From contig NC_027218.1 of the NCBI RefSeq assembly GCF_000981445.1, forward strand, positions 1,364,001 to 1,428,000: a stretch of DNA of 64,000 bases, written 5' to 3'. The DNA comes from Babesia bigemina. Its lineage: Eukaryota. Positions 591 through 59,184 of this stretch are shown piece by piece. A program made the position numbers and the translations under genes. The notes beneath the pieces were generated by a model. The model was not told the DNA's origin. It worked only from the letters and a program-made list of their open reading frames with translations, and did no database searches. The stretch's first letter is position 1; the number at the start of each line of letters is the position of its first letter.

Positions 591-603
591 GAACACGCAC
601 CTC

Positions 604-7363: not shown

Positions 7364-7585
7364 ATGATGAGGGACGTGAAATCCAGAGAATATTATGACT
7401 CTCTGAACGACCCGCTGACCCAAATTGGATGCGTGCCAACGTGGATGATACCTGTAATGTTAGGCAACAGTACGACGTGGATCCGGCAACCAGTATCAGC
7501 GTGAGGCGCCAGCCCCGCAAAAAGGAAACCGGCTCTAGGCACGTAGCCACATCCCACACTATAAAATGAGAGAACGCAACAATAA
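7364..7585 (+). mobile_element. 3'-terminal fragment of non-LTR retrotransposon
   Basis: Translates MMRDVKSREYYDSLNDPLTQIGCVPTWMIPVMLGNSTTWIRQPVSA*, matching MRDMKPREDYDSVEDPRAQTGWMPAWMAPVTIGNGPTWIPQPVSA* at the end of the endonuclease relic (54800-54940). The 3' UTR also matches (gtagccac..cacact.taa.atgagagaac) and ends in a degenerate tail caacaataa. Confidence 0.75.
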
Positions 7586-40423: not shown

Positions 40424-40648
40424 TTATTATTATGTTATCTCATCTTATAGTGTTCTATTTGGCTACGTGCCTAAAGCATGTTTTCGATTGTACGTTGCTA
40501 GTGCCTAATGCCGCTAGTGTTGACTACGGTTTCCACGCCGGTTCATTGCCTATCGTCACTGGTGCCATCCATGCGGGGATCCATCCAGTTTGGGCTTGAG
40601 GGTCAGTCACAGAGTCAGCATCATCTTGGTTTCATGTACCTCGTCACA
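40424..40648 (-). mobile_element. 3'-terminal fragment of non-LTR retrotransposon with (TAA)n tail
   Basis: cattgcctatcgtcactggtgccatccatgcggggatccatccagtttgggct nearly matches 54835-54887. ttattattatgttatctcatcttatagtgt matches 54716-54745. Confidence 0.75.
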
Positions 40649-40649
40649 T

Positions 40650-41510: not shown

Positions 41511-41569
41511 CTCTAATTGTTGGTGGGTATATTGAAGTTGCGCAGACATTAAACTTTCGCTACTGGAGG

Positions 41570-44500
41570 ATGGCACCGCAATTCAAGAAGCTCACTGACT
41601 GCCCGGAAAATCTCCGGGAGGCCATCGACTGGCTGATACAGGTCAGGCATGGGAATGGTAATGGTGATGGTCTTGAGCATTTGGGCAAAGCTTTGAAAAA
41701 GTTGATTGAGGAGGCTATTCAGAAAGCTTACACCACTAATTTTGATGCACTTCTCAACATTCTCAATTCCGTCAAGTCTTACACCTGTTGTAAAGAGAAA
41801 GTGGCTAAAATTGAGGCACTTAAGAACCCTAAAATGCTTGCCCAAAACATCTTTGAAGACCTTAAGCATTTCTGTGAAAGCATTAGATATTGCTCTGAAA
41901 ATCACTTAGAATCTTCCCAACAAAAGTCCTTTGGTGACATTACCTCCAAGTTGGAACAGCTTGCTAAACTTAAAGAGGGTCTCACTGGATTCACTAATGA
42001 GACTCAATGTAAAGATTTACTTACTAACCTTTGTACTGGCCTCGAAAGTTTCCTCGGCTTCAACAAAGATTCAAAAGGCTACGACGGCAGTGGTATTGTG
42101 TACTCTGACTTGGATAGGCTGTGTGACGGGGTTATGGCGTTTTTGAAGGGGGTGTTGGAGGGTGTGGAAAATGAAGATGCGGTAGGGAAATACGTCGTTA
42201 ATGTTGATGAGATCATAAAGTTTGTCAATAAGAAAATTGGTAATGGACATGCGGGATTTATTTCTGCAATCACCAGTGTGGAATCCACGTTGTCGATGTG
42301 GAATAACATGTTGACACAGCGAACTAATGAGGTTAAGGGTCAATTAGGTGAGTTGAAGGATAAGCATATAAATAAGTATTCGCAGAATATTGAAGCTGTG
42401 AAAAACAATGGTTGTACAGCGATAAATACTTCATTAATGCAGTCTATTGTTAAACTCAAAGCATTTATGACTAACATTAGGAAAAATGATAAAGGATTTA
42501 ATGGCCTTGATACTGGTTTACAAGATAAATTGAATGTGCCGCTAGAGAAGGTAGATGATGGGATCAAAATTTTGCAGAATGCTACACAGGACGACGACTT
42601 TATAAAGGCCGTCTACGTTGTCCAGTCAACCTTTGCCAAATTGCCCAAAGAAATTGAGAGTTCCATATCGGAGAATGTTAAGAGTACTATTAGTGGGCAT
42701 GAGAGTGCGGTGGGTGTACTCAAAGAAACTGTAAAAAAAGAAGTTGAAAAATCTCGCGACGCATTTCTCACCGAACGCCTTGCCGTTTTCAAAGAGGATT
42801 TGGTGAAGGCCATTACTACGTTCAGTAAAAATGCATACAACCTGGGAGGTTTGAAGAATAAGACGGTTAGACAGGCGATTGAGGCAATTGAAAAGAAATT
42901 GGCGAAACTTAATAATGGCGAGGAGACTGTTGAAGACTCTGCAAAGTTGCAAGAATTAAGAACTGTGACTGTCATCCCCCAGACGAAGAGTATTAAAGAT
43001 GCACTTAATGAGCATGCAGGTGAAATTTCTACGAAGTTGAACACTTTGGATGATTCTATTGACGCACCGCAAAACTTATTTAGAACATATGAAAATGATT
43101 TGCTCAGGTTGGTTGAAAAAGCTAATGACGATTTGCAAAAGGCTCTAAAATGTGCCCGGGACAATGCTAAGAATTTGGGTGGGTTAAATAATATTGCGGT
43201 TAAGACGGCTGTACAGCAAATTCAAGTGAAATTGGATGATGCTGATAATATAACCAGCATGGAGAAGCTTAAAAAATTAAAAACCGATCTAATGGATAAG
43301 GAGCATATTGTAACCATTACGGATGCACTTAATCCGAAAGGCAGCGCCGTCAACAATACGATTCGGGATGCATTGAATCATATAGAAAATCCCGAAATTG
43401 TTTTTGCAACTCATAACAAAGATCTAGATACGTTAACTGAAAAAGCAAAAGCCGATTTGGTGGCCGCCGTCACCAACGTCACGGAATACATAGAGACCCA
43501 CGGTGGGATGAACAATAAGAAAGTTAAGGCCGCCTTAGACAAAATTGAATCAGCGTTACAGGAGTTTGAAACGCTAAGTATAGGTGTAGAGAGTTTGTTT
43601 CGCGTAGTCAATGCAGTTGATGAAGAGATTAGTGGGAAAGTTCCAAGTGTGGCTGCCCTTAGCGGTCTTCAAGCCAAATTGACCGGTGAACTGGAAATTC
43701 TAAAACAAAGAGTTCGTACGTTGAGCGATAAGAATACAACAGAATTAAAATCTCTCATAACATCTACCAGGTTGTATATTACTGATGCGATATACATAAT
43801 CGAGTGTTTCGGAACAACTTCTGAAGGGAAAAAAGAGGAGGAAGTTCATGGTGTAATAGGGCGCTTAGAAAAGCAGTTAAAGGAGCTCGATGATCCGTTT
43901 AAAGGTAAGAATTTAAGGGGATTTCATAGTTCCGTTAATGAACATCTTGCAAAACTTAAAAGTGATAATGTTGATTTTCAAGGCCAAGGCCTCCCACAAC
44001 TAAAAAACCCACATATGCCAGATATTAGTCAAAAACTGATAGAAGCACGTGATGCTGCCTTGAATCCTCTGCTGGATAGGGCGAAGGGTGTCGTTGAGAA
44101 GTATATAACGAATGCTGAGAATTACATCAATATTTCTAGGACCACATCTCTAAACGAATTTAGAGAAGCATTAGGCAGGTTAAAAGGAAACATTCAAAAA
44201 CTTAATGCGAATTCCGTGTTGACAGACTTTGAATCACAGCTGACAGAAGTTAATAGTCAGTTTGATAGTGCTAGAGATAATCCACAAGGTGCGGCCCAGG
44301 CCTTACTCCCACACTTTCAAGAATACATCGCACAAATTAAGAGACAAATTAGGCAGACATTCATACACGCGCAATCTACTGCCTTCCAAACGGCAATCGA
44401 CATATCCAGGGTAGAGGTTGGTGCTGTAGTTAGCAAAGCTAAGAAGGCGATTGAAGCAGCTTCACAGGAGTATCAGGCGGCAATGAATGGCCCACGTTCG

Positions 44501-47500
44501 CGCATTGATAAGGCGGTTAGTGATATTAAAGAGAAAGCTTCATCCGACACGCTTAACACTGTTACCTCTAATGTCTCCCCAGATTTTGAAATCATCATAC
44601 AAGCCATAAAGCAAAAATCAGTTTTCTCCGACGATTCAAATGAACGCCAGAAATATTTCAACGAACTTCAAGGGCTCATCACTAACACAACAAACACTCT
44701 GTCTGAGGCGTACAAAAACGCGTACAGGAGTGCAGCGAAGTCCTATCTGAGCGGAGCGATTGGTAAGATTAGGGTGGCGGTCACTAAAGCAGAGGATCAA
44801 TATTATCAGGCGATTCAACATGTAAATTTCGATTTAACCCAGATTAGTCATGACAACTTCACGAAAGAAACGGTGCGAACTTCATTAAGTGCAACACTCA
44901 CTAAACCATTCGCAACATTGCTCCCCAAAGTTGTAGAATATTCTGCATTCAGTAATGATTGTAGTGAACGTGTAAATTGTTTCACTCAGCTTCAAAGTTT
45001 AATAACCAACAAAGTATCCACTCTGACTGCCGCCTACAAAAGTGCTTATCAAAGTACTGCTAAGACGTATCTCAGTAAAGCAATAGGTATGATTAAGCAT
45101 GAAGTTGTTGAGACAGAGAAGAAGTATAAAACGGTAGTTGCTGGTACTGTTATGGAAATCGAGAACATTATTATTGGACTTAAAGCAGATGCATTCAAAA
45201 ATAAAAGAGCTCATTCTGCATTGAAAACGTTATTTGATGCGCCATTCAGGGTTTTGCAATCTACAGTCCAGGAATATTCCGCCTTTAAAAAAGACTTAGA
45301 TAATCGTAAAACATGTTTCTCAAAGCTTCACGATTTAATCGCCCACATGGTTCAAACACTCGTTGAAGCCTATGAACTGTTTGACAGGTGCGCAATAAAG
45401 GCAATAGATCACCTTCGCCAGTCATTCGATGATGCGAAAAGCAGAATTGATAGACTGGGAGTAGATGTGAAAGAAAAAGTAAGAAAGGCGTTCGACAAGG
45501 TTATTGGGGAGGTTTACGATATGTTCTCCAAAGACAAGATCGCGCTGTTAAAATCTTTGAGAATCTGCGTTGAGGAGCAGAGAAAAGAAGTTGAAAGAAT
45601 TATTGGCGTTGACTTAAAAAAAGGGGTTAAAGGATTACTACAGTTGCTGAAAATATGGCTTGATAAGAAAAGTGGTGACCTTAAAAACGCTCAAAACTTG
45701 AAATCGTTGGCTGACCTATTTAAACACCTCAACAAGCATCTTTATAGGTATGTTAAATTTCAATATGACGGATTGGAATTGGAAGATGATAGCGATGACG
45801 ATGATGATGATTCCCTATCTTCCACCCCTGCTGTCCGACTAGTCCCACCCCCGATTTCCGGTGGCAGTTATAGAGCGAGACCGGCAGAACCTACCTCTCA
45901 ACCTAAGGGGAATCCACTAGGTCGCGTCGGCATGCCTTATAAGACAGCGTCAACAGACCAGCAGCATCCTTCGCAGCCCACCAAGAACCCCATTGCGGAT
46001 CATCTTGACAGGCTTAAGGTGCATTCCGACAGACTTTTTGGCACACTTTCCGCCGGGTACTTTAGTAGATCATTCGCAACAAAATTGGAGGATGTAACAG
46101 AGTTCCTCAGCTCCATGCGCTCTTCAAATTTTGCAGGTATTGGCAGTCCATTATTCGACATCCTCACGTTAGGGCTTCAGTCTCTGACTCACGAACTTGG
46201 GAAGGCATATATATCGGCGTATGATACTCAGGCGTACAATTTCCAATGGGATACTGATAGAAATGCAGAGAACTGTGCCAAGTCATTCTTCACCCTTCTG
46301 AACAATGTCTACGAAGATATGGCCACGCTGAAAGAGAAGTGCGTAGACAAATCCAAATATGGTTGGAAAGACAAGAAAATTTGTAAAACTCAAAAAGGCA
46401 CAGGAAATTCACTTGGCGCGTTTTTCGAGAGGTGCGGATACAGGGTCCCTACTGATGACCAAGGCAAACAGGACGGGCAGTTGCAGTGTAAGGACAACAT
46501 GAAGGGTTCGGATATACGTGAGAAACTGGTTGAGTCGATGATTGACACGCTTAACAATTCGCATCTTAATGCGTGCATCAAGCAAAAATACTATCCAGAA
46601 CAGACGGCAAGAACGATGTATGATCTCTTCGACTTACTTAAATGCCTATTCCATCACCTCGACGAGTACAACGAGGTCTGCCACCTCGCAATATTCACCG
46701 CACGTAGGAACCCGTGCAGCGTTTATGACATGTTAATCTGGCTGACCGGTCTACCATACAACGTCGCACGTCCTGCAATGATGCGTGAAGGTATCGGTGG
46801 TCTGCTTGAAAATCCAAACAAGGCACTTGGTGGCGACGATGATGGCCTTTTGGCATATGAGTTGGACGACTTCTACCTCGATGCTCATCCAAGTAAGATC
46901 ACGTATCACGATATCGATTACACGATTCATCACATCAGTTCAAGCGCGTACGACATTATCACTTGCATAAGTGGCACCGGTGACGATGCGACATTCTACG
47001 GCAGCGACCTGTGCAACAACTCCTTCAAATTCAAGTATCCTACATCGGGTGAGGAATGTCTCGATATGCTTTTGGACATCCTCCGAAGACTGTTCCCGCC
47101 ACTTAAATTCTTGTTGACGCAGTGCAGTTATCCGGCCAATCTTAACGGTTGGTCACAGTGTGAGTACGGCAAGAACGTCTCCACTACTAAGTGGCCGTGT
47201 AAAAAGCACTCAACGTGCCGACGAAATGGCCAACCAAATTGTGAACCAAAATCACCACTTATGTCATACTTGAACGACTGCCTACCGGGCCATCTTCCGC
47301 ACCAACTAACCGATATTGGTTGCAAGTACAAATGTGACACCTGCCCTACATCAACGCCTGGACAACCATGTTTGACGCCACTCGGTTTCCGCGGTTTCTC
47401 AGGGTCCACGAAAACAGGTAAAGATATATGCAGAGCGCTGAACAAATTCTTTGACGATCGCAACCTGTCCGCCCTGTTTGGTCTCAGCACCAAGACGCCG

Positions 47501-48436
47501 ACCACTCTACCTGAACACTTCGGCTTCGTATCGTGTCTTGTCAAGGGATGGGTACAGAAATCAAAATTGGTAGGTGATAACATACAACAAACGTTCCATA
47601 AATCAATATCCAGCCGCTCTATATCATTATATAAGGAACCCAGTGAATTGACTGATGCGCTCCGCAATGCTTACGGTGACGCACGGCCTGCTCATGTTGA
47701 TCAGAGTCATCTGGCTGCATATGCGGCGTTATCACATCTGTCAATGACAACGTGCAGTGATCCCAACCAAAAAGCATATTGCGCTCCGTATATTACATCG
47801 CTATGCGGAGATTCATACACGTGTCTGCCATTTAAAAACTCTAATACCTATTTGTCGTGGGCAGTATATCTCCCATGGGATTTCTGGCAGCTACTCAACA
47901 ATTTCTACAATGACTTTTGCGATATGTTGTGTCAAGATTGGGGATGTCGCACGTGTTTACGCGCTGATAAATGCAGACGTGGTAAGCATGGCCTGGTAGA
48001 AAAACTTGATAATAAGGCTGACAGCCCTCATTGCAAATGCCCATCCATGGTACAGTGTAGAGGGGTCTCACCGACACTCTATCGGTATGGATTTGTATTT
48101 GGTGAGGCCTCAACGCTGAGTGACGGAAACTCCAAAAAGCTCTGCTCTGATTTCTGCACTCAATTGGGCAACGTGCTTAATTCGCAATACTTTAAAGACC
48201 TATTCACAAAATGTGATGAATACCTACTTGCCATCCGTTTCCCATTCATGACCTTAACTCTAGCGCTCTGGCTCCTCTCTCTGTTGTACCTCCTCCACAT
48301 CATGGTCATCCGCCTAGACCTGCTCCACATCAAATCGCATTTGCACTCACCCTCATCACATCGCATCGCCGCGCAATCACTACTCGCCGCGGCACGTGTC
48401 AACAAACTTGCCAAGATCACCTACCTGCAACCTTGA
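41570..48436 (+). CDS. ves1: Variant erythrocyte surface antigen (VESA/ves-family) protein, ~2288 aa, single ORF
   Basis: MAPQFKKLTDCPENLREAIDWL start, GYDGSGIVYSDLDRLCDGVM motif, helical repeats, Cys-rich C-terminal domain, TM segment, and RLDLLHIKSHLHSPSSHRIAAQSLLAAAR..YLQP tail. Confidence 0.9.
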   Translation: MAPQFKKLTDCPENLREAIDWLIQVRHGNGNGDGLEHLGKALKKLIEEAIQKAYTTNFDALLNILNSVKSYTCCKEKVAKIEALKNPKMLAQNIFEDLKHFCESIRYCSENHLESSQQKSFGDITSKLEQLAKLKEGLTGFTNETQCKDLLTNLCTGLESFLGFNKDSKGYDGSGIVYSDLDRLCDGVMAFLKGVLEGVENEDAVGKYVVNVDEIIKFVNKKIGNGHAGFISAITSVESTLSMWNNMLTQRTNEVKGQLGELKDKHINKYSQNIEAVKNNGCTAINTSLMQSIVKLKAFMTNIRKNDKGFNGLDTGLQDKLNVPLEKVDDGIKILQNATQDDDFIKAVYVVQSTFAKLPKEIESSISENVKSTISGHESAVGVLKETVKKEVEKSRDAFLTERLAVFKEDLVKAITTFSKNAYNLGGLKNKTVRQAIEAIEKKLAKLNNGEETVEDSAKLQELRTVTVIPQTKSIKDALNEHAGEISTKLNTLDDSIDAPQNLFRTYENDLLRLVEKANDDLQKALKCARDNAKNLGGLNNIAVKTAVQQIQVKLDDADNITSMEKLKKLKTDLMDKEHIVTITDALNPKGSAVNNTIRDALNHIENPEIVFATHNKDLDTLTEKAKADLVAAVTNVTEYIETHGGMNNKKVKAALDKIESALQEFETLSIGVESLFRVVNAVDEEISGKVPSVAALSGLQAKLTGELEILKQRVRTLSDKNTTELKSLITSTRLYITDAIYIIECFGTTSEGKKEEEVHGVIGRLEKQLKELDDPFKGKNLRGFHSSVNEHLAKLKSDNVDFQGQGLPQLKNPHMPDISQKLIEARDAALNPLLDRAKGVVEKYITNAENYINISRTTSLNEFREALGRLKGNIQKLNANSVLTDFESQLTEVNSQFDSARDNPQGAAQALLPHFQEYIAQIKRQIRQTFIHAQSTAFQTAIDISRVEVGAVVSKAKKAIEAASQEYQAAMNGPRSRIDKAVSDIKEKASSDTLNTVTSNVSPDFEIIIQAIKQKSVFSDDSNERQKYFNELQGLITNTTNTLSEAYKNAYRSAAKSYLSGAIGKIRVAVTKAEDQYYQAIQHVNFDLTQISHDNFTKETVRTSLSATLTKPFATLLPKVVEYSAFSNDCSERVNCFTQLQSLITNKVSTLTAAYKSAYQSTAKTYLSKAIGMIKHEVVETEKKYKTVVAGTVMEIENIIIGLKADAFKNKRAHSALKTLFDAPFRVLQSTVQEYSAFKKDLDNRKTCFSKLHDLIAHMVQTLVEAYELFDRCAIKAIDHLRQSFDDAKSRIDRLGVDVKEKVRKAFDKVIGEVYDMFSKDKIALLKSLRICVEEQRKEVERIIGVDLKKGVKGLLQLLKIWLDKKSGDLKNAQNLKSLADLFKHLNKHLYRYVKFQYDGLELEDDSDDDDDDSLSSTPAVRLVPPPISGGSYRARPAEPTSQPKGNPLGRVGMPYKTASTDQQHPSQPTKNPIADHLDRLKVHSDRLFGTLSAGYFSRSFATKLEDVTEFLSSMRSSNFAGIGSPLFDILTLGLQSLTHELGKAYISAYDTQAYNFQWDTDRNAENCAKSFFTLLNNVYEDMATLKEKCVDKSKYGWKDKKICKTQKGTGNSLGAFFERCGYRVPTDDQGKQDGQLQCKDNMKGSDIREKLVESMIDTLNNSHLNACIKQKYYPEQTARTMYDLFDLLKCLFHHLDEYNEVCHLAIFTARRNPCSVYDMLIWLTGLPYNVARPAMMREGIGGLLENPNKALGGDDDGLLAYELDDFYLDAHPSKITYHDIDYTIHHISSSAYDIITCISGTGDDATFYGSDLCNNSFKFKYPTSGEECLDMLLDILRRLFPPLKFLLTQCSYPANLNGWSQCEYGKNVSTTKWPCKKHSTCRRNGQPNCEPKSPLMSYLNDCLPGHLPHQLTDIGCKYKCDTCPTSTPGQPCLTPLGFRGFSGSTKTGKDICRALNKFFDDRNLSALFGLSTKTPTTLPEHFGFVSCLVKGWVQKSKLVGDNIQQTFHKSISSRSISLYKEPSELTDALRNAYGDARPAHVDQSHLAAYAALSHLSMTTCSDPNQKAYCAPYITSLCGDSYTCLPFKNSNTYLSWAVYLPWDFWQLLNNFYNDFCDMLCQDWGCRTCLRADKCRRGKHGLVEKLDNKADSPHCKCPSMVQCRGVSPTLYRYGFVFGEASTLSDGNSKKLCSDFCTQLGNVLNSQYFKDLFTKCDEYLLAIRFPFMTLTLALWLLSLLYLLHIMVIRLDLLHIKSHLHSPSSHRIAAQSLLAAARVNKLAKITYLQP

Positions 48437-48720
48437 TGAATCACCTCACCACCACTCACCTAACTCACTACCTAGCAACCCACCGCCTAACCAAACGCTC
48501 ACCCAAATATATTACGTAATACCTACTCAGCAATTGGCAGTCGATGTAGTTCATGCATTAATAGGTTCGTTGTTTGGGATGTTGAGTTGTGAGTTACTTG
48601 TAAGCGGCGTCCTCGTCATCCCATGGTGTTAGTGGGCAGTGATGTTGGGTGATAAGCCACTGATGTAGGCGGCTGAAGCGTGTTGTGATATGCGAAAGTG
48701 CGTTGTATGCAACGTTATTG
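48437..48720 (+). repeat. Conserved ves 3' flank/UTR
   Basis: Closely matches the reverse complement of ~1010-1289. More diverged versions of its distal part lie at ~52350-52560 and ~53650-53880. Confidence 0.75.
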
Positions 48721-49160
48721 TTTGGCACGTTAGCTATTATATACGTTACTAGAGTATGGATGTCACCGGGACTGCGAATTGGTGGTCAGTGGGCGGCTTA
48801 GTTATGTGACTCTAGTTGCAAGAATGCGAACGGCTAACATGGCAACCTTGTGCTGTAAGTCGGCTATACACTACTTAGAACACCAGCATATTGACACATA
48901 GAGCAGTGACGAAGTGGCGTGGTCTGTGGTGGGTGGAGTTGACTGCTCAACGGGCACCGGTTGATCTGCATGCCACGGCGATAATATCGCTCACATGCGT
49001 TAACTTAATGGTATTTATGTTGTGATAGCTGTGTAGTTGTCATGTAACCGGCGGTGCGCTGGATGTCGGTCATCTGGTTGCCACCATAACGCCGATGGGA
49101 GACGGCGTCAGTGTCGTTGGCTGACGTACGTGTTTAATGCCTGCACAGGTTGAGGGGAAG

Positions 49161-49523
49161 ATGTCGGAGTGCCAGTGTAGTACTAGCAGCAGCGGATCCT
49201 GCTCTGTATCGGGATGTAAGTGTTGTCCTTGGTGTTGTTCAAAGTGTTTGATTTGCTCTAAATGTAAAGAGAGTTGCACCACCTACACAAAAGACAAGGC
49301 GATATGCGATCTCTCAACATGTCCCAAATGTAGCGATAAAGGTTTGTGGAAGTGTTTTTGTCTGTGTTGTATGAAGAAGAAGGCTTGGATTTTCATCCCC
49401 CTCTTCATCGTCGTCATCATCGTCGTTTCATGCTACCATTTCGGATTGCTAAACATAACTTATCGTAAGCTTTCCAACATTTTTCCAACATCTCGACGGA
49501 GCGCCTACAGTGGACTCTCATAG
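49161..49523 (+). CDS. Small cysteine-rich single-TM protein, ves-associated family
   Basis: MSECQCSTS..CKCCPWCCSKCLICSKCKESC..CFCLCCMKKKAWIFIPLFIVVIIVVSCY; preceded by the conserved block and a leader acceptor (gcacag|gttgagggg). ATG 49137 probably lies in the intron. Confidence 0.8.
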   Translation: MSECQCSTSSSGSCSVSGCKCCPWCCSKCLICSKCKESCTTYTKDKAICDLSTCPKCSDKGLWKCFCLCCMKKKAWIFIPLFIVVIIVVSCYHFGLLNITYRKLSNIFPTSRRSAYSGLS

Positions 49524-49634
49524 GCTCACATATTATACGTAGACATGTCACATTAGTTAATAAAATATAGGCGGAATCTACCTTCACTCTCATGGCTTAG
49601 GTTTAGTTAACGTAATTGTCACTGATTTCTCCCT

Positions 49635-49751
49635 CTCCTCCACATCCGATCGCATTTGCGTAGTCCCTCAAGTCACCGTATTGCCTCGCAATCACCACTC
49701 GCTGCTGCAAAAATCGGCAGACTCCCCAAGATATCGTACCTGTAATCATAA
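49635..49751 (+). pseudogene. Relic of ves 3' end
   Basis: Translates LLHIRSHLRSPSSHRIASQSPLAAAKIGRLPKISYL*S*, i.e. the ves cytoplasmic tail with a stop replacing Q of YLQP. No upstream ORF. Confidence 0.8.
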
Positions 49752-51440
49752 TCGCATCTACACGTGTCATCTTCACCGCCAATTTAGTGACACTCATCAC
49801 CGTGATGACGCCACTACCTATCCCACGGGGTCCACCAACCACTAGGTAATATAGTTACCAGCTCCTGTTATTGCCATCAAAGTCTCCTAGACCATTCTGT
49901 CATGCCGATAATCCTAGTTTGCCATTGATTTCTCATTATTTTTAAGTTTCTCTAATAATTTCTGGAGCCCCTAAAACTCAACACCCACCTTATCCGCATC
50001 TGCAACTACTATTCCAAGTAACATGTCGTTCAGATAAGCAACGTTGCTCAGTCACCGTTTAATTTTCATGTCAGTACTTGGTATGTTAACGTAGTGTCTC
50101 AAGCTGAGTATAGCGCGTCCTGTCTCCTTTTTTTATTTAGAGGTGTATTTCTTGAATTAATATCACTGTTTGTGACTTATATACTAGGGGAAATGTAGTT
50201 GCTAGTGCAATGTCTATCCACTTCTCTCCATGACATGGGTATGACTTTGGCACTACGTGAATCGATAAGGTGGGGTACAACCATTAGCGTATTTGTCCAC
50301 AATTTGAAAGACTGTCAATGCCCGCAATACACAAAGATAAACGTTTTACGACAACTTTCACTGCACTTCAATGGCTCCACTAATGCTGAAGAATAACGGT
50401 GGCAACGGTTGCCTACACCAGACCATCGCTGGGATGCATACGGCGATGGCATTCACTGATCATGATATATTAACAGTGCATAATATCGACTGTTACATAA
50501 AGCTTCTGTTGTGTAATACGGAGAATATTGCAGTGCGGCTTTCGAGGTGGTACTCGCCACCGGCCTCACCGACACAGCTGACCGCTTCATTGACTGCGGG
50601 TGAGGGAAACCAATAGAATGCTCATATGGTAATGTTAGGAATCCTCAATGTGATGGATATGCGGGAACAGGACTCGATTGCAGAAGTGAGCGAAATATCC
50701 GAGATACGCCTCATGTATACAATGTCCCCGACCTCCTTTGGGCTGAGACTTGGCGAGTTGCCAGAGTGGGCAGTATAATGCTAACATGATGATGGAAAGT
50801 TGACTCTCTAGGGTACTAGCAATCACATTCGCAGAATGAGAGATCCACGTAGCCAACCGGGTTACGAAGTAATCGGGTAGATGTCACAGCGCTACTACCA
50901 CGTGGTTAGGTGGCTAAACAGCAACGCATTCAAGATATTGAAGCATGGCCATCGAAACATGATACCGTTTCGGCGGCAACTGATTTGATGCCTTATCCCA
51001 TGGCTGAATTTACAACATCCAAAACATAATGTAGACATGAATGTGGGAGTAATTGATCAGTCTATGTTTGACCCGATAAGCATGTTGTTTATGCGGTGTA
51101 AATCGTGCCTTTGTGATATATCTGGCGGTGTGGTTGGTGGCGGATGCTTGGGTGCTCACCTAGCGCCTACGGGAGACGACTAGGCGGCGCCACAATGCTG
51201 GGTCAGAAGGGCTGTACAGTATTCTACTCAGACAGCTCATGAGGACTCTCGTCTGCCAGCTTTGCTGCAGCCTCTTATGCCAGCCAATATCTGGTATTAC
51301 CGTATTCATGGGCTCATTGCTTTCCCCCTCCTCAGGTAGGTGGGATGTTTATAAGATGATCGTCCTGTCTGATGGGTTTTGAGAGCACAAAATGAGTCTT
51401 TTGCTGCTTTGATATCACGCATAATATAATCGCTGGGCGA

Positions 51441-52199
51441 TCCACTCCACACCCCGACTGCCCTGACTGGGACCATCTTGGTCGCCACGACCTCCAAGCT
51501 GTCAGTGGCATCCGAGGTTCTGAGTCCCTCAACCACAAGTCCAACTCCAACCACAGCAATGAGCATCCCCGTACCCTGTCCACACTGGTCGGCTGTAGCA
51601 GTGACTCTGCCAACTGCCATCCACACTGCTCGCCCATCACCTACCGGGCGTACTCCCTGTACTCTCCGACTTTCGCCCACACCTACCTCAGCTGGACGGT
51701 GTACCTGCCGGACAGGCTGCGGGAGTCACTTCAAAAGCTGTGCAATGACATGATAAAGTATAAATGCTCCGATGGCAAATCCCTCTACTCATGTTCCACT
51801 GCCCTGCCCCTCCTCTACTTACACGGGTTCACGCCGCCGGAGGGCACATCGCAGGTGTCACTCAAGTGCTCTGATGTTATAACTAAGCTGAAGGAAATTG
51901 TCAACGGTGGCCCTATCGCATCACTCATGACCTGCATGGACTATTTCCTCTACGGTATCCGGGAGCCATTCATCTTCAGTCTCGTGGCACTCTGGTCCAC
52001 CGCATTCCTCATCTTCGCCAACACAATGTTGTACCGCCTGGACATACTCCACATCCGATCACACCTCATCCGCTCCAAGGCCTCGCACCGCATCGACGTC
52101 AAGGCCTTACTCACCAAAGGCCGGAAGATGCTTTCACTTTACAAAGACGTCGACTACTTCGACGAGGACCCTATTGGCCAAATTGGCATTGTACAGTAG
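51441..52199 (+). pseudogene. ves1: 5'-truncated ves1 gene of a second subfamily (C-terminal ~250 aa)
   Basis: Open frame STPHPDCPDWDHLG..HPRTLSTLVGC..PITYRAYSLYSPTFAHTYLSWTVYLPDRL..TM..YRLDILHIRSHLIRSKASHRIDVKALLTKGRKMLSLYKDVDYFD. In-frame stop at 51393 and no ATG before the homologous part. Confidence 0.8.
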
Positions 52200-52994
52200 T
52201 TATCGCATTAATGTAGTCATTTATGCATAACTATGTGGTGGGGAGTAGTAGTGATGAGTTGTGATACCGCATCATCGATGGTACCATGGCGTGAAAAAGC
52301 GTAACTACTTCCAGGCATAACTTGAGTCATGTATCTCACTTAAGAGATCATTCTATTTGGGATGTTGGGTTGTGAGTTATTTGTGAGACGAGCCTACGTC
52401 ATCTAATCAAGTCAGTGTAATGTGAATCTGGGGTTATTGGTCACTAACGTGGCATTTCACAACTGTCGTACTGTGTGATATAGTGGGCTGCCTGTTAGAC
52501 TGGTGGATGACAGATTAGTGATCTGATGACAAGCCAGGCGATCAATGCCACCGGCACGCTAACGTGATGGCCACTGGACGGTGTGGTTATGACAGTGATG
52601 GTAACGGTGTAAATGAGAGACATATTAATGAGCCTGTGTAGCTCACTCGGGGTCTCATTATAATACAACTATGACGACATGTAGGAGCGCTGTCGCCGAC
52701 GTTGGCCGGCCTGTGATGTAGTGGACTACGCAACTGGTACCGGTTGACCTGCATGCCACTGCTAGTATACCGTCAACATGCGTTGACTTGTCTCTATATC
52801 TGTGCTTATATCTGCATAGTTGTGATGTGAGTGGCAGTGATTTGGATGGCCGTTACTTGGCTGGTTGTGGAGCCGACGGGAGGGGAGGAGTGTCCTTGGC
52901 TGAGGTGCGTATTCGTGTTGTAAATCAATGAGTGCGTTGCTTAAGTGATTGATATATGTTTGCAGTTTGATGGGACTGGGAGGGACAGGGGAAG

Positions 52995-53504
52995 ATGACG
53001 GTAGGGGATCCGTGTAGGTTTTGTGATAATAAATGTAAAATGATGATGGAGTGTTATTGCTGTCCCTGGTGTTGTGCGGGATGTAGCAATAAAAGTCAGT
53101 GTATTGAATGTTTGATGCAAAACATGGTGCGCAGAAAAGATCCAACTTACAAATGTGATCCTTCCGTATGTGAAAAACAATGTAAAAAGTGTACCAACTC
53201 TAGATGTAAATGTCTATGCCCATGCTGTAAAAGTAGAAATGGAGGTGAACTCACTACCAACTGCGACAGTCATTCTGGCAAACCGCTTCGTTCCCTCCCC
53301 TCTTCTTCCTCCCGTGGCTCTGCTTCTCACGGTCATGCCTCTGCCTCCCGTGCAAAGCAGCAAACCGGTTCATCATCTACCACAGCTTCCACTCCCATCC
53401 CTTACATCATCGCCTCAGTCGCCCTCATCATCCTCGTCATCTGCGTCATGAGCTACTTCCGCATCCGGCCCTTCCACAGGGTGCTATATCTACTTCGAAG
53501 CTAA
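52995..53504 (+). CDS. Small cysteine-rich single-TM protein, ves-associated family
   Basis: CYCCPWCCAGC..CIEC..CEKQCKKC..CKCLCPCC, Ser-rich linker, TM YIIASVALIILVICVMSYF, basic tail. Conserved upstream block and leader intron ~52904-52965. Confidence 0.8.
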   Translation: MTVGDPCRFCDNKCKMMMECYCCPWCCAGCSNKSQCIECLMQNMVRRKDPTYKCDPSVCEKQCKKCTNSRCKCLCPCCKSRNGGELTTNCDSHSGKPLRSLPSSSSRGSASHGHASASRAKQQTGSSSTTASTPIPYIIASVALIILVICVMSYFRIRPFHRVLYLLRS

Positions 53505-54270
53505 TTATAATAACCTGACTTGCGGCTAACATCTAATGTGCTAGACAAAGTATTGATCGCATTGATGAACAATCACATGAGCAGTGAGGTGACCTAGCTA
53601 CTGACGAAAGTGGTGACCTAGAACCTGACCATCCATTTGACATGGCATTTAATAGATGCACTGATGAGCGAGTTGTTTGGGGTGTTGGTATCTGAGTTAC
53701 TTGTGAGACGTGTAGACGTCATCGCATCTAATCAGTGCGATGTGAATCTAGATGATTGGCTGCCAACGTTAGAAGCTGTGATGACGGTGCTAGTTGATAT
53801 CATATGTTGTCAACTCCGCTACTGTTTGGCGAATCAGCTATCATCCGTGCTGCTGGGATGCCACCGGGACTCTGACATGATGGCTAGTGGATTGAGTGGT
53901 TACGTGACACCGATGGCAACAATTGAATGAGAGACGTATTGACCGAACAGAAAAGCTCACATATACACTCATCAGAGCACTGATGTGATGACCTTTACAT
54001 GAGGCACTGCCAACTTTGTACTGTCCTTTATGGTTGGAGTTGACTGCTCCACTGGCACAGGTTGACCTGCATGCCACGGCCAGGATGGTATTAACATGCT
54101 TTACCTTGGTTGTACTTCCGTTGTGATAGCTGCATAGTTGTGATGTGAGTGGCGGTGCACTGTATGGCCGTCATCTTGCTGCTACCGTAGCGCCGATGGG
54201 AGACGGTCAGTGTCTGGGGACGAGGTGAGTGGTTCATGTTTGCAGGTTAAGGGACAGGAGAGGGGATAAA

Positions 54271-54642
54271 ATGAGTGAGCTACAACGGTGTAAGTGTATT
54301 CTAAGTCGCAAGCAGTGTGACGATGGAATCTGTATATGCTGTAAACAGTGTTGCAATGAGTGTGTCAATCTCCATGGTTGTTCAAAGTGTGTATCTGGAC
54401 TCCGTGGCCGCATAGATAGTTATGACTGTAACCATATAAACTGCAAGACTGTATGTAAACCGAATTGTGAATGCTCATGTTGTTATAGTAGAAGTGCATG
54501 GCGTGCCGCTGCTGTCATCATCCTCGTCATCATCGCCCTGGTCTTCCTGTTTCATTTTTGCATCTTTCACATTCTGCCTTTTCCTCAGGTCCGGGAATAC
54601 ATCGTCCGCAAATTAGCCTGTTGCTCCTCATTTTACAATTAA
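54271..54642 (+). CDS. Small cysteine-rich single-TM protein, ves-associated family
   Basis: MSELQRCKCIL..CICCKQCCNEC..CSKC..CKTVCKPNCECSCC, TM AAAVIILVIIALVFLFHFCIF; conserved upstream block. Confidence 0.8.
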   Translation: MSELQRCKCILSRKQCDDGICICCKQCCNECVNLHGCSKCVSGLRGRIDSYDCNHINCKTVCKPNCECSCCYSRSAWRAAAVIILVIIALVFLFHFCIFHILPFPQVREYIVRKLACCSSFYN

Positions 54643-54715
54643 CTCCTACACCTTGTATTATCGCACTTAGCTCATGGTGTCAGACATTAACAACCCAACG
54701 TTTCGTATAATGGCC

Positions 54716-55501
54716 TTATTATTATGTTCTCTCATCTTACAGTGTGCTGTGTGGCTACATGTGACTTGTGCTACTGTTAAGTTTACCAAGGGTGCCGCCT
54801 CACGCTGAAACCGGTTGCGGGATCCACGTCGGTCCATTGCCGATCGTCACTGGTGCCATCCACGCGGGCATCCATCCAGTTTGGGCTCGAGGGTCTTCTA
54901 CAGAATCGTAGTCTTCTCTCGGTTTCATGTCCCTCATCACTATTTTATCTGTTTCTTGGATCACTACCCGTTGTTCGTGAGCCTCCGTGCGATCCGATAT
55001 GCCCAGGTCCCGTACATACTTGCTGTGTTCTTTCGTCACTATTCCCTCCCACGTCATAACGTAGGGGATAACCCGGATCTTGGTTTACTGGTTAAACTGT
55101 CGCGCCTTGAGGTCCCCGATAAGGTCTTCATACTTCTGCTTCTTGAACTTCTCAGTATCCACTAGGTTGTCTTGATTGCTGATTACGATCTCCACGATGG
55201 TTATGGTGTTCCTCCGCCGATCCGCCAGGATGATGTCTGGCCTGTTGTATTCCTTAGTCTTCCGAGTCTTGACCGTCATCTCGTACGCGATCCATCCGTA
55301 TTTTACATGCACTTGACTCTCGATCTTGTGGGCATCTATCTTCTCCTTGGGTAGTCCTATTTGCCTCCCGAGTACTGACTGGACTCGCTTTGCTACCTCG
55401 TTGTGCCTCTTCGTATATTCAAGGTGTAGGAGTTTCGGCCACTTCGTCGCGAGGTGGTCCACATTCTTGCCGTTGTTGCCTCTTGTGCCTCCCATATTCA
55501 C
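54716..55501 (-). mobile_element. 5'-truncated, decayed non-LTR retrotransposon (restriction-like endonuclease, R2-superfamily type)
   Basis: ORFs 55085-55501 and 54800-55057 are one frame split by a single TAA: VDHLATK..EYTKRHNEVAK..EYNRPDIILADRRRNTITIVEI..EKFKKQKYEDL..*TKIRVIPYVMTWEGIVTK..LGI..VIQET. This gives RHN, PD..D..E and K..KY..L motifs, then a short 3' UTR and a (TAA)3 tail. Confidence 0.85.
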
Positions 55502-55696: not shown

Positions 55697-58492
55697 TCAC
55701 TCGCAGGAAGGTTCCTCATCTGTGCTTTCAAGCAACATCTTCATGTTGAAAGGCTTGAACGCCTTGCCGTCAGCCTTGAAGAACTTGTTTTGGAACTCCA
55801 CCCACTGCAGCCTGAGCGCGTGCAGGTAGCACTCGAGCGAGTCCATACAGAGCATCACGAAGAAAGTGATCACCGCGAAGGCAATGGAGGTGATGAACAG
55901 GCTGATCACGGTGGCAATCACGCCACCTTCGCCTTCAAGTGAGCGGTAGATGGTCTGCTTGAAGAAGACGGAAGACAACTGCTGATGCGACAGCGAAAGC
56001 GCCCAGAGACGCAGGTATGACGAGGTGTTGCTGATGACACCCAGTGAGAACTCGATAGTTTCAATCAGCTGGTGGATGAAGATATCGGCGATGTTGTGCT
56101 GCCCGTGCGACCCGTGGTCCTCGGTGACAGTGCCATCGCTGTGAATGGTAACCGCGAACTCGCCCGGTTGCATTTCACTGGTCGAGCTGACTCGCTTGAA
56201 CTGGAATTTCGATTCCGACATTCCGTTGGCGTCCGTGTTGGACGAGCCGCCAACAGCCTGGTCCCTGGCCTCGATATCGTCTGATTGGCGGTAGACGAGT
56301 TCGTGCTCCCGCTTGGGCTCACCTCCGCCGATGACCAGCCTGCGCCTTTGTGCTAAATAGAGCATGATGGGCTTGGGGAAGAACATCATCGGGATGCAAA
56401 TCAACATGAGGATGACAAGCACACGCTGTACATTCTGCTGTCCCTCGTACATGATGTCGTCCTTGGTGAGGTCCTTCATGAGGCACATGTCAATCATGGT
56501 GGTGATGATCGACGGCTTGGCGAAGCCGTTGTTGAGTGGAGTGATCCACTTGTGGATGATCAGGAAGTTCATGTAGCCCACGAAGCAGCACATCATAACG
56601 AATTGGGGCAGGAACTCGAAGAAGAAGTCGAGCGGCTGCCTGAAGTATATGGCGTTCAGCCCCTTTAGGCACACACCCATAATCATCTGCAAGAACCCTA
56701 CTATGACAGAGAACTTCATCTTGAATGAGTGGAGCATGGTCTGTTCGTTTGTGGCGTGGATCCAGGCCACGTCGAGGCCGAACCCCACCGGGAAGCTTTC
56801 ACTGGACCGCTGCAGGGTCTCCAAGTACTGCCCCTCTCCAACCTTGACACGGCTGCTCGGGTTACTCAGCCAACACGATCCGAAGATGTTGTTTGGCAGA
56901 GACAAAAAATCGTTGTATATGAACCCGGTGTACGTGGCCATGATACCCATGAGCAGGATCATGTACCGACCGTTGATAACCATGAGTGCAATCTCGCCGT
57001 TGTAGGTTTCCTTCAATTTGCGGTGGCGGATGAGCAAGAACAAACCGAACAGGAGCACGCACATGCCATGTCCGATATCACCGAACATAATCCCGAACAG
57101 GAATGGGAAGGTGATGATGGTGAACGGCGCTGGGTTCATCTCTTTATACCTCGGTATACCGTAGGTGTCCACGACGTTCTGGAAGGCCTGTGTGAACGTG
57201 CCGCCTTTGTTGTAAGTCGGCGGCATGGTCTCGGGGTCGTCAAATAACCTCTTGTTTTTGCACTGGTTGTCGACAAGAAGCAACGCGCTGACGCGTCCTT
57301 GCGACTTCTCTGCCAAGAGATACGACCTGATGTTCTCCTCTTCCTCCTCGGGGAACCAGCAATCAGCGCGCAGCGTGATGTCACTTGCCTCGAAATGGTT
57401 CAGGATGTAGTAGATGTATTTCTCCTTCTTGCAGAACAGCGCCCATTCCTCAACGACGCTGTTGCCCTCGGGCCTCGGGCACTCCAGGAGACATGCAATC
57501 TCCTCCCGGAAGTACTTCTTGAAGGCGTTGAGTGCCTTCTGCTTGTCGCGGATGATCTCCTCGAGCTCGCCCAACCTTTGGCGGATGTGAGATTGTGACT
57601 TGGACCAATCGAAAAGTTTGGCCTGGAACCCGTTGCATAGTTTTTGCAGTTTTTGGAACGTGGAGCTGCTACTGGACGACTGGCAGTAGATTACGAATAC
57701 GATTTTCTCATCCTTGTCGTGCCCCGCGGCCTCCTCTTCGCTGATGAGCCCCCGCGCAAGCATGACTTCCCTAATCACCTGGCTGTCCTGGAAGAAGGTG
57801 TACACGTTGCCACGCATGGCCCTGAAAATAGCCCTCGAAAACGCATCCTTGTCGTGCGCGCTGATGATGCCCGCAATGTTGGAGAACGCCAGCGTGGCGC
57901 TTTGTATGTCGGTCTCGATTGATGACGGAATGTCGACCATTTCCCTGTCGACAACATCGCCGTTTGCGTCGCTCTCTGCCAGCAATTTAGCGTTGGATTC
58001 GGCAGATTCGTCCGTACCTGGCCCCCGCTGCGCTGGCGACTCGGCCGAAAGGTACGACTGCCCATTCGACGAGTTGAGCTGCTTCAGCGCCACCAGCATG
58101 ACGCTGTACTCGTTGAGCACCTCCTCGAGCTCAGTCCTGAGCATGAGGTCGTTGCTCTTGAACTTTTCAAACTGTCCGTACAGCTTGAACAGCGACTCCT
58201 CGACCTGGTCGAGGCGGTACACATCGTCGCACTGGAGGAAGTCATCGATTTTGTTCTTGACGATGAACGTGCCCGGTAGCGCCGTAATCTCCTCTTGCAG
58301 CACGCGAATCATGCGCTGCATGTTCAGGATACGCTGGAGGTACTTCTTGTACGGTCTCTCCATGCAGCGTTCGTTCATGTCGACGAACTGGATGTTTGTG
58401 TGCCGGCACAGGAGGTCAATGCAGTCCCGGGCCCTTTCCTGCGGGATGACCAGCGTCCCATGGGACATGGTCTCCGACCTGAAGATTCCCAT
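55697..58492 (-). CDS. VPH1: V-type proton ATPase V0 subunit a
   Basis: MGIFRSETM, PPTYNK, VDTYGIPRYKEMNPA, FPFLFGIMFGDIGHG, HSFKMKFS, ISNTSSYLRLWALSLSHQQLS and LHALRLQWVEFQNKFF. Confidence 0.96.
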   Translation of the reverse strand: MGIFRSETMSHGTLVIPQERARDCIDLLCRHTNIQFVDMNERCMERPYKKYLQRILNMQRMIRVLQEEITALPGTFIVKNKIDDFLQCDDVYRLDQVEESLFKLYGQFEKFKSNDLMLRTELEEVLNEYSVMLVALKQLNSSNGQSYLSAESPAQRGPGTDESAESNAKLLAESDANGDVVDREMVDIPSSIETDIQSATLAFSNIAGIISAHDKDAFSRAIFRAMRGNVYTFFQDSQVIREVMLARGLISEEEAAGHDKDEKIVFVIYCQSSSSSSTFQKLQKLCNGFQAKLFDWSKSQSHIRQRLGELEEIIRDKQKALNAFKKYFREEIACLLECPRPEGNSVVEEWALFCKKEKYIYYILNHFEASDITLRADCWFPEEEEENIRSYLLAEKSQGRVSALLLVDNQCKNKRLFDDPETMPPTYNKGGTFTQAFQNVVDTYGIPRYKEMNPAPFTIITFPFLFGIMFGDIGHGMCVLLFGLFLLIRHRKLKETYNGEIALMVINGRYMILLMGIMATYTGFIYNDFLSLPNNIFGSCWLSNPSSRVKVGEGQYLETLQRSSESFPVGFGLDVAWIHATNEQTMLHSFKMKFSVIVGFLQMIMGVCLKGLNAIYFRQPLDFFFEFLPQFVMMCCFVGYMNFLIIHKWITPLNNGFAKPSIITTMIDMCLMKDLTKDDIMYEGQQNVQRVLVILMLICIPMMFFPKPIMLYLAQRRRLVIGGGEPKREHELVYRQSDDIEARDQAVGGSSNTDANGMSESKFQFKRVSSTSEMQPGEFAVTIHSDGTVTEDHGSHGQHNIADIFIHQLIETIEFSLGVISNTSSYLRLWALSLSHQQLSSVFFKQTIYRSLEGEGGVIATVISLFITSIAFAVITFFVMLCMDSLECYLHALRLQWVEFQNKFFKADGKAFKPFNMKMLLESTDEEPSCE

Positions 58493-59184
58493 GGTGTTCG
58501 TTCGGCTGCTTCAGCGGCTATGGCATCGGTAAATCAGGCCTGATCTGCAGGGGTCCTTGTGCGTTGCCTGGCTCCCGCGCTACTCTCGGGTGAGGACACA
58601 ACCCATACAGATGCTTGTTTCGCTTTATTTATTCCACCGCTTGGGTGTATCGCCGGCGCTGCACGAAGATCGATCTCTCGACGTATTCAGTTGCCGTGCG
58701 ACGGCCGTCGCGGAGATACCATGCCCAAAACCTTAGTAACGGAAGTTGCGATTCGTTTTATTATCCAGTTTCAGCGTTTGGCACCGCGCTGGCGGTGCAA
58801 CAGCTTTTCCCTGCGACCCTGACGGCCGTGTATGCAGCCGTTGTGTATGGGCGGCGGCTTTCACGTGACCTGAGAATCTTGAGTTTTTCGAACCGTATGC
58901 GCAAGCTGGTAAGGTCTAAATCCCTGTCAACACCGCGCACGTATGGATCTTGTGCACCCAACACTAGGTACCTACATCCGTCACGTAGCAACGCGCGCCT
59001 GCGGACTAAGGCGACATTTTCCCGACAGCTCGGCCAATACGCTGCTGCATACTTGAAATTGCTATATTACACCTTTATACTGTGTGTAAGCATTGTTTTG
59101 ATGTGGTATGCGCGAATTTTATAAGGAAAGTACTCGCGCGCAATTTCCCGATCCAGGCGGTGCTTCCGTAGACGGCGCGCCGGT

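What the first reader, a model, noticed from the sequence alone, without database searches (positions are those of the whole stretch)
54716..55501. Non-LTR retrotransposon (restriction-like endonuclease type) relic in a piroplasm genome
Seen: two adjacent ORF-track entries form one frame broken by a single TAA (55085-55087). They give the C-terminal architecture of R2-superfamily elements: knuckle, YxxRHN, RPD..D..E, KxxKYxxL, IPYVMTWEG, short 3' UTR and (TAA)3 tail. The knuckle keeps C-x2-C-x7-H-x4-C spacing (G-TR-G-NNGKNVD-H-LATK-W), and each missing Cys codon (GGC, GGC, TGG) is one substitution from TGC. No RT domain lies upstream, consistent with 5' truncation during target-primed reverse transcription. 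Known: apicomplexan genomes are generally described as poor in transposable elements, and the reported exceptions are mainly LTR elements. Inference: a LINE-like family was active in this lineage, possibly acquired horizontally.
Basis: partly seen in the sequence, partly recalled or inferred. Interest (0 to 1): 0.9.

Follow-up and report, generated by a model that had tools for sequence, protein, structure and literature searches.

The report
Microsporidia-like retrotransposon relic in Babesia
This is a broken tail-end copy of a jumping gene (an R2-type retrotransposon) that has near-identical intact copies elsewhere in the cattle parasite Babesia bigemina; such elements were already reported there, but its closest named relatives outside these tick-borne parasites are from microsporidia, so it was likely acquired horizontally and may still be mobile.

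Summary
Observation confirmed. Window 54716-55488 (minus strand) is a 773-bp, 5'-truncated, decayed copy of a restriction-like-endonuclease (RLE) non-LTR retrotransposon. It has a degenerate CCHC knuckle, RH, PD..E and K..KY motifs, one internal stop, a 75-nt 3' UTR and a (TAA)3 tail. It matches residues 1120-1347 of an intact 1,347-aa RT+knuckle+RLE protein of Babesia bigemina at 91%. Four such proteins differ from each other by 1-4 residues, and a model of one aligns with R2 structures through the nuclease (Z 33). Two older 3' fragments lie in the window beside ves-like genes.

The novelty premise is partly wrong: LINE-like elements in B. bigemina, B. ovata, B. divergens and T. equi were published in 2022 (PMC9141347).

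Not found in my 10 searches: piroplasm elements nest among microsporidian ones (microsporidian monophyly rejected, p-AU 0.0003), and the T. equi element is closer to Vairimorpha (49.5%) than to B. bigemina (41.6%). Horizontal acquisition is likely. The donor (microsporidian or mite/tick) and present activity are inferred. Dong/R4 membership is plausible but was not tested against named elements.

The parts
54716..55488 (-). 5'-truncated RLE non-LTR retrotransposon copy (copy A), 773 bp
   Evidence: 91% to residues 1120-1347 of intact P0009; family contigs stop matching at 55488; tail ends at 54716
55439..55489 (-). Degenerate CCHC zinc knuckle; all three Cys lost, His kept; first Cys codon lies on the 5' junction
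   Evidence: C1122, H1130 and C1135 invariant in 80 of 80 aligned relatives
55400..55417 (-). YxxRHN motif (RH of nuclease helix 1), intact
   Evidence: motif role in R2Bm from PMC4838377
55190..55240 (-). PD...D...E nuclease motif, catalytic-type residues intact
55130..55144 (-). K..KY motif, intact
55085..55087 (-). Premature TAA inside the nuclease domain, before the last core strand
   Evidence: the public gene model BBBOND_0305640 (P0002) skips these 27 nt
55043..55069 (-). IPYVMTWEG motif (last nuclease strand and turn)
54800..54802 (-). Natural stop codon of the element ORF
   Evidence: same end as intact P0009
54725..54799 (-). 3' UTR; the last ~45 nt are the part best kept among the three window copies
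   Evidence: 87% over 46 nt to copy C
54716..54724 (-). (TAA)3 tail
   Evidence: 15 of 24 related metagenome loci examined carry 3 or more TAA/AAT units within 400 nt after the ORF stop
55489..55498 (-). 10-nt 5' junction, matching neither family DNA nor the host flank seen in run X5; holds an in-frame ATG used by the public gene model
   Evidence: origin not established
55697..58510 (-). Host V-ATPase subunit a (stop-to-stop frame); its stop lies 209 bp from the element's 5' end
   Evidence: Pfam PF01496, E 3e-232
54229..54642 (+). Small Cys-rich ORF with a hydrophobic C-terminal stretch, 74 bp from the tail
   Evidence: no Pfam match
7365..7585 (+). Older 3' fragment of the same family (copy B), 928 bp upstream of a ves-like ORF
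   Evidence: 74% to copy A
40424..40646 (-). Older 3' fragment of the same family (copy C) with (TAA)3 tail, 923 bp upstream of a ves-like ORF
   Evidence: 78% to copy A

Best explanation
This is a 773-bp, 5'-truncated, decayed copy of an R2-type (restriction-like endonuclease) non-LTR retrotransposon whose intact 1,347-residue relatives are encoded elsewhere in Babesia bigemina, and it was likely inserted by target-primed reverse transcription that stopped early. Shown: the identity, the architecture of the intact copies (RT with YIDD, CCHC knuckle, RH/PD..E/K..KY nuclease, R2-like fold), the truncation point, the TAA tail and the decay of this copy. Inferred from R2 biochemistry: a protein made by an intact copy bound the element RNA at its 3' end, nicked the target with its nuclease and reverse-transcribed from the tail. 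Copying ended after about 770 nt, at the first knuckle cysteine, and the cDNA was joined through about 10 nt of unexplained sequence with no clear target-site duplication. The copy has no RT, so it could never move by itself, and it has since drifted. Inferred from phylogeny: the family entered piroplasms horizontally from the microsporidian/mite group of these elements (about 0.65), and it has copied itself recently in B. bigemina (about 0.7). Copies persist mainly in ves-type variable regions, most simply because insertions are tolerated there.
For: Identity: 207/228 residues to P0009, E 6e-142; RVT_1 in P0009, E 5e-30. Family: eight GenBank records are listed for four 1,347-aa proteins, which differ pairwise by 1-4 residues; five T. 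equi proteins of 1312-1314 aa are 98.2-99.5% alike. Fold: model of P0020, pLDDT 89.7; the top 7 Foldseek hits are R2 proteins, E 2e-28 to 9e-25; VIA Z 33.4, 754 residues aligned, model 67-887 onto R2Tg 550-1382, so the alignment runs through the nuclease. Truncation: family contigs leave the window at 55488; copies B and C are ~220-bp 3' ends; more distinct contigs show variants near the 3' end (10 and 18 at 54863) than further 5' (2 and 1 at 55087 and at 55334) in runs X4 and X5 (weak). Decay: 22 of 229 positions differ including a stop; 6 of 31 highly conserved sites changed against 15 of 197 others (Fisher p 0.047, the opposite of purifying selection). Tail. Horizontal origin.
Against: No read or contig spans either junction of this copy, and no empty site was recovered. 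The one contig that matches the host flank (run X5, depth 2.7, 94%) runs on before 55499 into sequence that the lays did not place on 53400-55498 and whose 30 printed letters match nowhere in the window. So the 5' end could also come from a later deletion or rearrangement rather than from truncation during insertion. No target-site duplication: the longest shared word is 5 nt, reached by 628 of 1000 random pairs. Some near-identical intact copies lie on small scaffolds and may be assembly or haplotype duplicates. The outgroup rows of the tree are unnamed. Mite-labelled and unnamed metagenome elements fall in the same group, so the donor is open.
Confidence: 0.9

Rival explanations
1. The copy was once longer or full-length and lost its 5' part in a later deletion or rearrangement at the border between the housekeeping block and the variable ves-like block.
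For: In run X5 the host flank continues before 55499 into unrelated sequence. There is no target-site duplication. ves regions are reported as rearrangement-prone (PMC4066756 passages).
Against: The 3' end and tail are intact, and all three window copies are 3' ends, the polarity expected from incomplete reverse transcription. Variant contigs are more numerous at the 3' end.
Confidence: 0.2
2. The family was inherited vertically from an early eukaryotic ancestor, or is an old paralogous lineage lost in most alveolates, so no horizontal transfer is needed.
For: Element lineages are not orthologues, so nesting can reflect old paralogy. Piroplasm monophyly is not rejected (p-AU 0.33), and within Babesia the tree keeps B. 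bigemina and B. ovata as sisters. Taxon sampling is limited to annotated proteins.
Against: T. equi is 49.5% identical to Vairimorpha apis but 41.6% to B. bigemina, and B. bigemina is 42.6-45.7% to Vairimorpha and Hamiltosporidium. Three named microsporidian rows branch outside the piroplasm-containing group, two of them behind starred branches of 97 and 98. Microsporidian monophyly is rejected (p-AU 0.0003). No other alveolate is among the named hits of the 120 listed.
Confidence: 0.2
3. The donor was a tick or other acarine element rather than a microsporidian one.
For: Dermatophagoides and Blomia entries are in the hit list. L006 carries a 35%-identical relative on a 17-kb contig beside an ankyrin gene that looks animal-like (the animal reading is my inference). 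Piroplasms pass through ticks. Element ORFs are often masked in animal annotations (recalled).
Against: Mite rows group away from the piroplasm clade and are more distant (35-37% against 43-46%). No tick-labelled protein is among the named hits of the 120 listed.
Confidence: 0.2
4. The copy has been domesticated as a small nuclease gene that starts at the junction ATG, with the stop removed by a 27-nt GC-AG intron as in gene model BBBOND_0305640.
For: There is an in-frame ATG at the junction; RH, PD, E and K..KY are intact; a public gene model exists.
Against: The skipped 27 nt are coding in the intact copies. Conserved sites are hit at least as often as others. The copy appears absent at this place in run X5.
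Confidence: 0.04
5. The segment is contaminating DNA (tick, microsporidian or cattle) or a chimeric join.
For: No independent read spans its junctions.
Against: The family is on megabase contigs of B. bigemina, B. ovata, B. caballi and T. equi and is present in B. divergens. The Babesia rows form one clade at 100 support. Three copies of different ages lie in this window. Family DNA is in runs X1-X5.
Confidence: 0.02

Closest known systems
LINE-like elements of Babesia/Theileria (models Bova_19, Bdiv_22; Rodriguez & Makalowski 2022, PMC9141347)
   Same: Same species set (B. bigemina, B. ovata, B. divergens, T. equi) as my hits. Very likely the same family, though I could not compare the model sequences.
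   Different: In the text and Table S2 rows I saw, the models are 'Unknown/LINE' with an RT domain. I saw no nuclease type, tail, intact near-identical copies or outside relatives described. B. caballi was not in that study.
R2 retrotransposons (R2Bm 8gh6/8ibw, R2Tg 9dou/9nl3; R2 superfamily)
   Same: Single ORF with RT, CCHC knuckle and C-terminal PD-(D/E)XK nuclease with RH and K..KY motifs; fold match over 730-765 residues.
   Different: Only 14-16% identity. No N-terminal zinc-finger pattern found in the first 600 residues. Not inserted in 28S rDNA; dispersed. Ends in TAA repeats.
Microsporidian RT elements (Vairimorpha apis, Hamiltosporidium tvaerminnensis, Enteropsectra, Dictyocoela); microsporidian LINEs are labelled Dong-R4 by repeat classifiers in PMC3614468 and PMC13174016
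   Same: Closest named relatives outside piroplasms: 50% over 411 RT residues to V. apis; the same knuckle, RH, PD and K..KY pattern.
   Different: The Babesia ORF is longer (1,347 aa against about 1,145 aa in the closest full-length metagenome relatives) and on a long stem branch. That my microsporidian hits are the elements labelled Dong-R4 in those papers is an inference.
Dong/R4 clade (Dong of Bombyx, DongAg/DongBg)
   Same: R2-group architecture; DongAg and DongBg insert into microsatellites (PMC3636483); TAA-type tail here and in most relatives examined.
   Different: No TAA array at the 5' flank of this copy, so no sign of microsatellite targeting. No named Dong or R4 sequence was available for the tree.

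Membership tests
RLE non-LTR retrotransposons (R2 superfamily) | Reverse transcriptase of non-LTR type in the element ORF | tested here: met
   Met in the intact family copies (RVT_1 E 5e-30, YIDD; best PDB sequence hits are L1 and R2). Absent from this copy, which is truncated.
RLE non-LTR retrotransposons (R2 superfamily) | CCHC knuckle downstream of the RT | tested here: met
   C-x2-C-x7-H-x4-C at 1119-1135 in intact copies; degenerate in this copy.
RLE non-LTR retrotransposons (R2 superfamily) | C-terminal PD-(D/E)XK nuclease with RH and K..KY motifs | tested here: met
   Motifs intact in the window copy; the profile aligns PD and K..KY to R2 (weak on its own); the structure alignment to R2 runs through the nuclease; features as defined in PMC4838377.
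RLE non-LTR retrotransposons (R2 superfamily) | No N-terminal APE nuclease, single ORF | tested here: met
   Only RVT_1 passes Pfam's cut-off in the 1,347-aa ORF; sequence matches to L1 ORF2p are limited to the RT region. DNA upstream of the intact ORF was not available.
RLE non-LTR retrotransposons (R2 superfamily) | Simple-repeat 3' tail, 5'-truncated copies, no terminal repeats | tested here: met
   (TAA)3 tail; three 3'-end copies in the window; no terminal repeats at the element ends.
RLE non-LTR retrotransposons (R2 superfamily) | Target-primed reverse transcription activity | not testable with these tools
   Needs biochemistry; inferred from architecture.
R2 clade proper | N-terminal zinc finger(s) plus Myb | tested here: not met
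   No Cys/His finger pattern in the first 600 residues and no such Pfam hit; feature per PMC5035012 and PMC4838377. Myb was not tested by fold.
R2 clade proper | Insertion in 28S rDNA | tested here: not met
   All three window copies are intergenic beside protein genes.
Dong/R4 clade | RT phylogeny inside the R4 clade | tested here: inconclusive
   Trees were built, but none of the 4 outgroup-side rows looked up (P0308, P0349, P0335, P0319) carried an informative name.
Dong/R4 clade | TAA-repeat tail (that Dong ends in TAA repeats is recalled) | tested here: met
   Window copies A and C; 15 of 24 related loci examined, chosen by me from 80 for long matches.
Dong/R4 clade | Target specificity (microsatellite for Dong, rDNA for R4) | tested here: inconclusive
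   No TAA array at copy A's 5' flank and no empty site recovered; some members of the R2 group are not target-specific.

The most novel reading that the evidence does not exclude
A still-mobile RLE retrotransposon jumped from microsporidia into piroplasms, plausibly inside a shared tick host, once or twice (Babesia; T. equi). Its copies accumulate in and around ves antigen loci, and their 3' ends mark the edge of duplicated ves cassettes, so they may act as homology anchors for the routine transposition of ves genes between loci.
Probability: 0.3. Interest if true: 0.75.

Novelty: new member of a known kind. Interest (0 to 1): 0.45.

Why it matters
The single relic is ordinary. The family matters in three ways. 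(1) It classifies the 'unknown LINE' of piroplasms as an R2-type element with intact, nearly identical copies, so an apicomplexan may carry a working non-LTR retrotransposon. (2) It points to transfer of a mobile element between two unrelated groups of intracellular parasites (fungal-related microsporidia and apicomplexans). The 2022 survey left gain versus loss in piroplasms unresolved, and this makes it testable. (3) An endogenous RT and dispersed repeats beside ves genes bear on how ves loci move; PMC4066756 cites a suggestion that ves1-alpha arose by retrotranscription. It also shows that gene model BBBOND_0305640 is probably a pseudogene fragment with an invented intron.

Tried and rejected
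No whole genome was held, so copy number and target sites could not be counted on DNA. Pfam on the two window fragments gave only a sub-threshold restriction-endonuclease hit (PF06616, E 0.024). The single-sequence fold of the nuclease part failed (pLDDT 38.5) and was not searched. Expression: no RNA holder was listed; runs X1-X3 are only guessed to be RNA, and raw-read run X6 laid 0 reads, so there was no test. Empty site: not recovered; no joint across the element; the X5 loose end matches nothing in the window. Target-site duplication rejected as chance. Two knuckle cysteines lost among 21 changes looked targeted, but the motif was picked after the fact and other conserved sites are hit too, so I treat it as drift. 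I recalled that PMC7313128 discussed piroplasm Dong-R4 elements; its main text has no mention of Babesia, Theileria or Dong, so that recall was wrong. The same holds for PMC4202319. The BovB/L1 sequences assigned to B. bigemina in PMC13465657 are other element types and do not bear on this family. Earlier scan notes: none found. The first tree had no outgroup and was not used for direction.

Full report
Observation. The minus-strand frame 55540-54800 reads as 247 codons with one internal TAA at 55085-55087. That nine-mer occurs only twice in the 64 kb, both times at the end of a copy of this element. The neighbours are V-ATPase subunit a on the 5' side (PF01496, E 3e-232) and small Cys-rich ORFs and ves-like remnants on the 3' side.

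Identity. The read-through peptide found 7 proteins of similar length and 3 longer ones, all from Babesia bigemina or B. ovata. P0002 (BBBOND_0305640) is the window peptide from the junction ATG with nine codons skipped across the stop, so the window is most likely B. bigemina and that model is probably a pseudogene with an invented intron. P0009 is a 1,347-aa protein with RVT_1 (E 5e-30), YIDD, C-x2-C-x7-H-x4-C, RHN, PD..E and KKQKY. The window copy matches its residues 1120-1347 at 207/228. Four 1,347-aa proteins, listed under eight GenBank records (lists capped at four accessions each), differ by 1-4 residues. Some lie on megabase contigs, others on small scaffolds that may be duplicates. 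Five T. equi proteins of 1312-1314 aa are 98.2-99.5% alike.

Fold. A model of P0020 (residues 421-1347) on an 80-sequence alignment had pLDDT 89.7. Foldseek ranked seven R2 chains first (E 2e-28 to 9e-25), then L1 ORF2p. VIA gave Z 33.4, rmsd 4.8, 754 residues, model 67-887 on R2Tg 550-1382; L1 chains reach Z up to 30.6 with fewer residues aligned (497-657). A fold of the nuclease part alone failed. The CCHC, RH, PD-(D/E) and K..KY features are those described for R2Bm (PMC4838377, passages).

Boundaries. Contigs of other family copies match up to 55488 and continue as element sequence (X2, X3), so the element spans 55488-54716. The 30 printed letters match nowhere in the window. This suggests the copy is absent or the whole block differs in that isolate, but it is a single shallow contig and gives no clean empty site. 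Ten bases (55489-55498) belong to neither side. There is no target-site duplication beyond chance. No record spans either junction.

Decay. 22 of 229 positions differ from P0009, including the stop and all three knuckle cysteines, the first at the junction. Of 31 sites conserved in 90% or more of relatives, 6 changed, against 15 of 197 others (Fisher p 0.047). There is no sign of purifying selection. RH, PD, E and K..KY remain.

Other copies. Two ~220-bp 3' fragments lie at 7365-7585 (+) and 40424-40646 (-), 72-78% identical to each other and to copy A. Both begin at the same element position, 928 and 923 bp upstream of large ORFs that I call ves-like. That label is recalled from their C-termini; Pfam VESA1_N did not hit them. 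Their shared upstream DNA is 85% identical against 72% in the element part (p 1e-5), and similarity ends at the tail. Of 7 fused gene models examined, 3 join an element to ves-like sequence: P0025 (B. bigemina), P0024 (B. ovata, element inside a gene similar to the P0025 partner) and P0039 (B. caballi, VESA1_N). Tolerated insertion in variable regions is the plain reading; a role as recombination anchor is a hypothesis.

Relatives. The RT region found 933 proteins, of which 120 were listed. B. ovata, B. caballi and B. divergens elements are closest (49-78% outside B. bigemina), then unnamed metagenome proteins and Vairimorpha apis at 50-53%, T. equi at 47%, then Hamiltosporidium, Pancytospora, Enteropsectra, Octopus-labelled and mite-labelled entries. 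The 50%-cluster search added a distant group at 25-31%. Of 248 candidates, 180 covered 80% or more of the profile and 68 were dropped; I hand-picked 62 of the 180 for IQ-TREE quick mode. Babesia rows form one clade (100). With T. equi they sit among Vairimorpha and Hamiltosporidium elements. One Enteropsectra row shares the 98-support clade with them, while a second Enteropsectra row and Dictyocoela (named) branch outside it and a 97-support branch. Holding the 6 named microsporidian rows together against the 6 piroplasm and 5 outgroup rows is rejected (p-AU 0.0003; run after I had seen the trees). Piroplasm monophyly is not rejected (p-AU 0.33). T. equi is 49.5% identical to V. apis but 41.6% to B. 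bigemina. Limits: the outgroup is unnamed, 14 rows have odd composition, most close relatives have no known host, and L006 puts a relative beside an animal-looking ankyrin gene, so mites or ticks remain possible donors. Of 24 related loci that I chose from 80, 15 have three or more TAA/AAT units within 400 nt after the ORF stop, which matches the window tail.

Literature. PMC9141347 (parts 1-3 of 5 of the text, passages, supplement part 1 of 5 and one search; the archive held lists Tables S1-S4 only, so S5 and S6 may bear on classification) reports LINE-like elements in B. bigemina, B. ovata, B. divergens and T. equi and leaves gain versus loss open. PMC10463595 (one passage) notes an RT cluster in B. 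caballi. PMC4066756, PMC5660447 and PMC3505731 (term searches) do not contain 'reverse transcriptase'; the first describes routine ves1 transposition. PMC13174016 and PMC3614468 (passages) label microsporidian LINEs Dong-R4. PMC3636483 (passages, section 8) and PMC5035012 (passages) define the R2 group and clade. PMC7313128 (part 1 of 4, passages) and PMC4202319 (passages) do not mention Babesia. Ten searches showed no paper linking piroplasm and microsporidian elements; several listed papers were seen only as listings. Repbase, Dfam and subscription journals were not searchable.

Verdict. It works like, and meets the sequence and structure tests for, the RLE non-LTR superfamily. It is not R2 clade proper, and Dong/R4 membership is plausible but not shown. 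The copy is dead and ordinary, and LINEs in this species are already in print. What remains of value is the classification, the near-identical intact copies, the microsporidian affinity and the ves association. Interest 0.45.

Noticed in passing
window 6298-7585 and 40424-41718: Two ves-like cassettes share about 1.3 kb (80%) from the gene start through the upstream region to an element fragment, and similarity stops exactly at the element's TAA tail.
   Followed up: partly
window 40424-55488: The second ves-like block is bracketed by two same-orientation element 3' ends (copies C and A); no copy was found in the housekeeping stretches 8-40 kb and 55.7-64 kb.
   Followed up: partly
window 582-822, 48930-49156, 52717-52919, 54002-54253: A ~240-bp block recurs four times (68-78% alike). 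Two copies lie just before small Cys-rich ORFs with a hydrophobic C-terminal stretch (52971-53504, 54229-54642), which have no Pfam match; possibly a small ves-derived gene family with a shared promoter or first exon.
   Followed up: no
window 49629-49739 and 51396-52199: Remnants similar to the C-terminal ends of the large ves-like ORFs.
   Followed up: partly
window 54641-54658 and 55417-55434: An 18-nt inverted repeat (94%) pairs a stretch inside the element with the 3' flank; probably chance.
   Followed up: no
window 54706-54715 and 40414-40423: The flanks just after the tails of copies A and C share CATTA in register; two cases are too few to call a target preference.
   Followed up: no
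L006:2134-5274 and 7183-7578: A relative (identical to P0130) sits on a 17-kb contig beside an ankyrin-repeat gene that looks animal-like, so this element group may include genuine mite-like copies.
   Followed up: partly
P0097 (B. ovata) against P0024/P0010: B. ovata holds two lineages of the element; the second is only about 52% identical to the B. bigemina type.
   Followed up: partly
P0073, P0098, P0148, P0167, P0168, P0281: Several relatives are filed under bacterial metagenome bins; on short element-only contigs they are probably mis-binned eukaryotic repeats.
   Followed up: no
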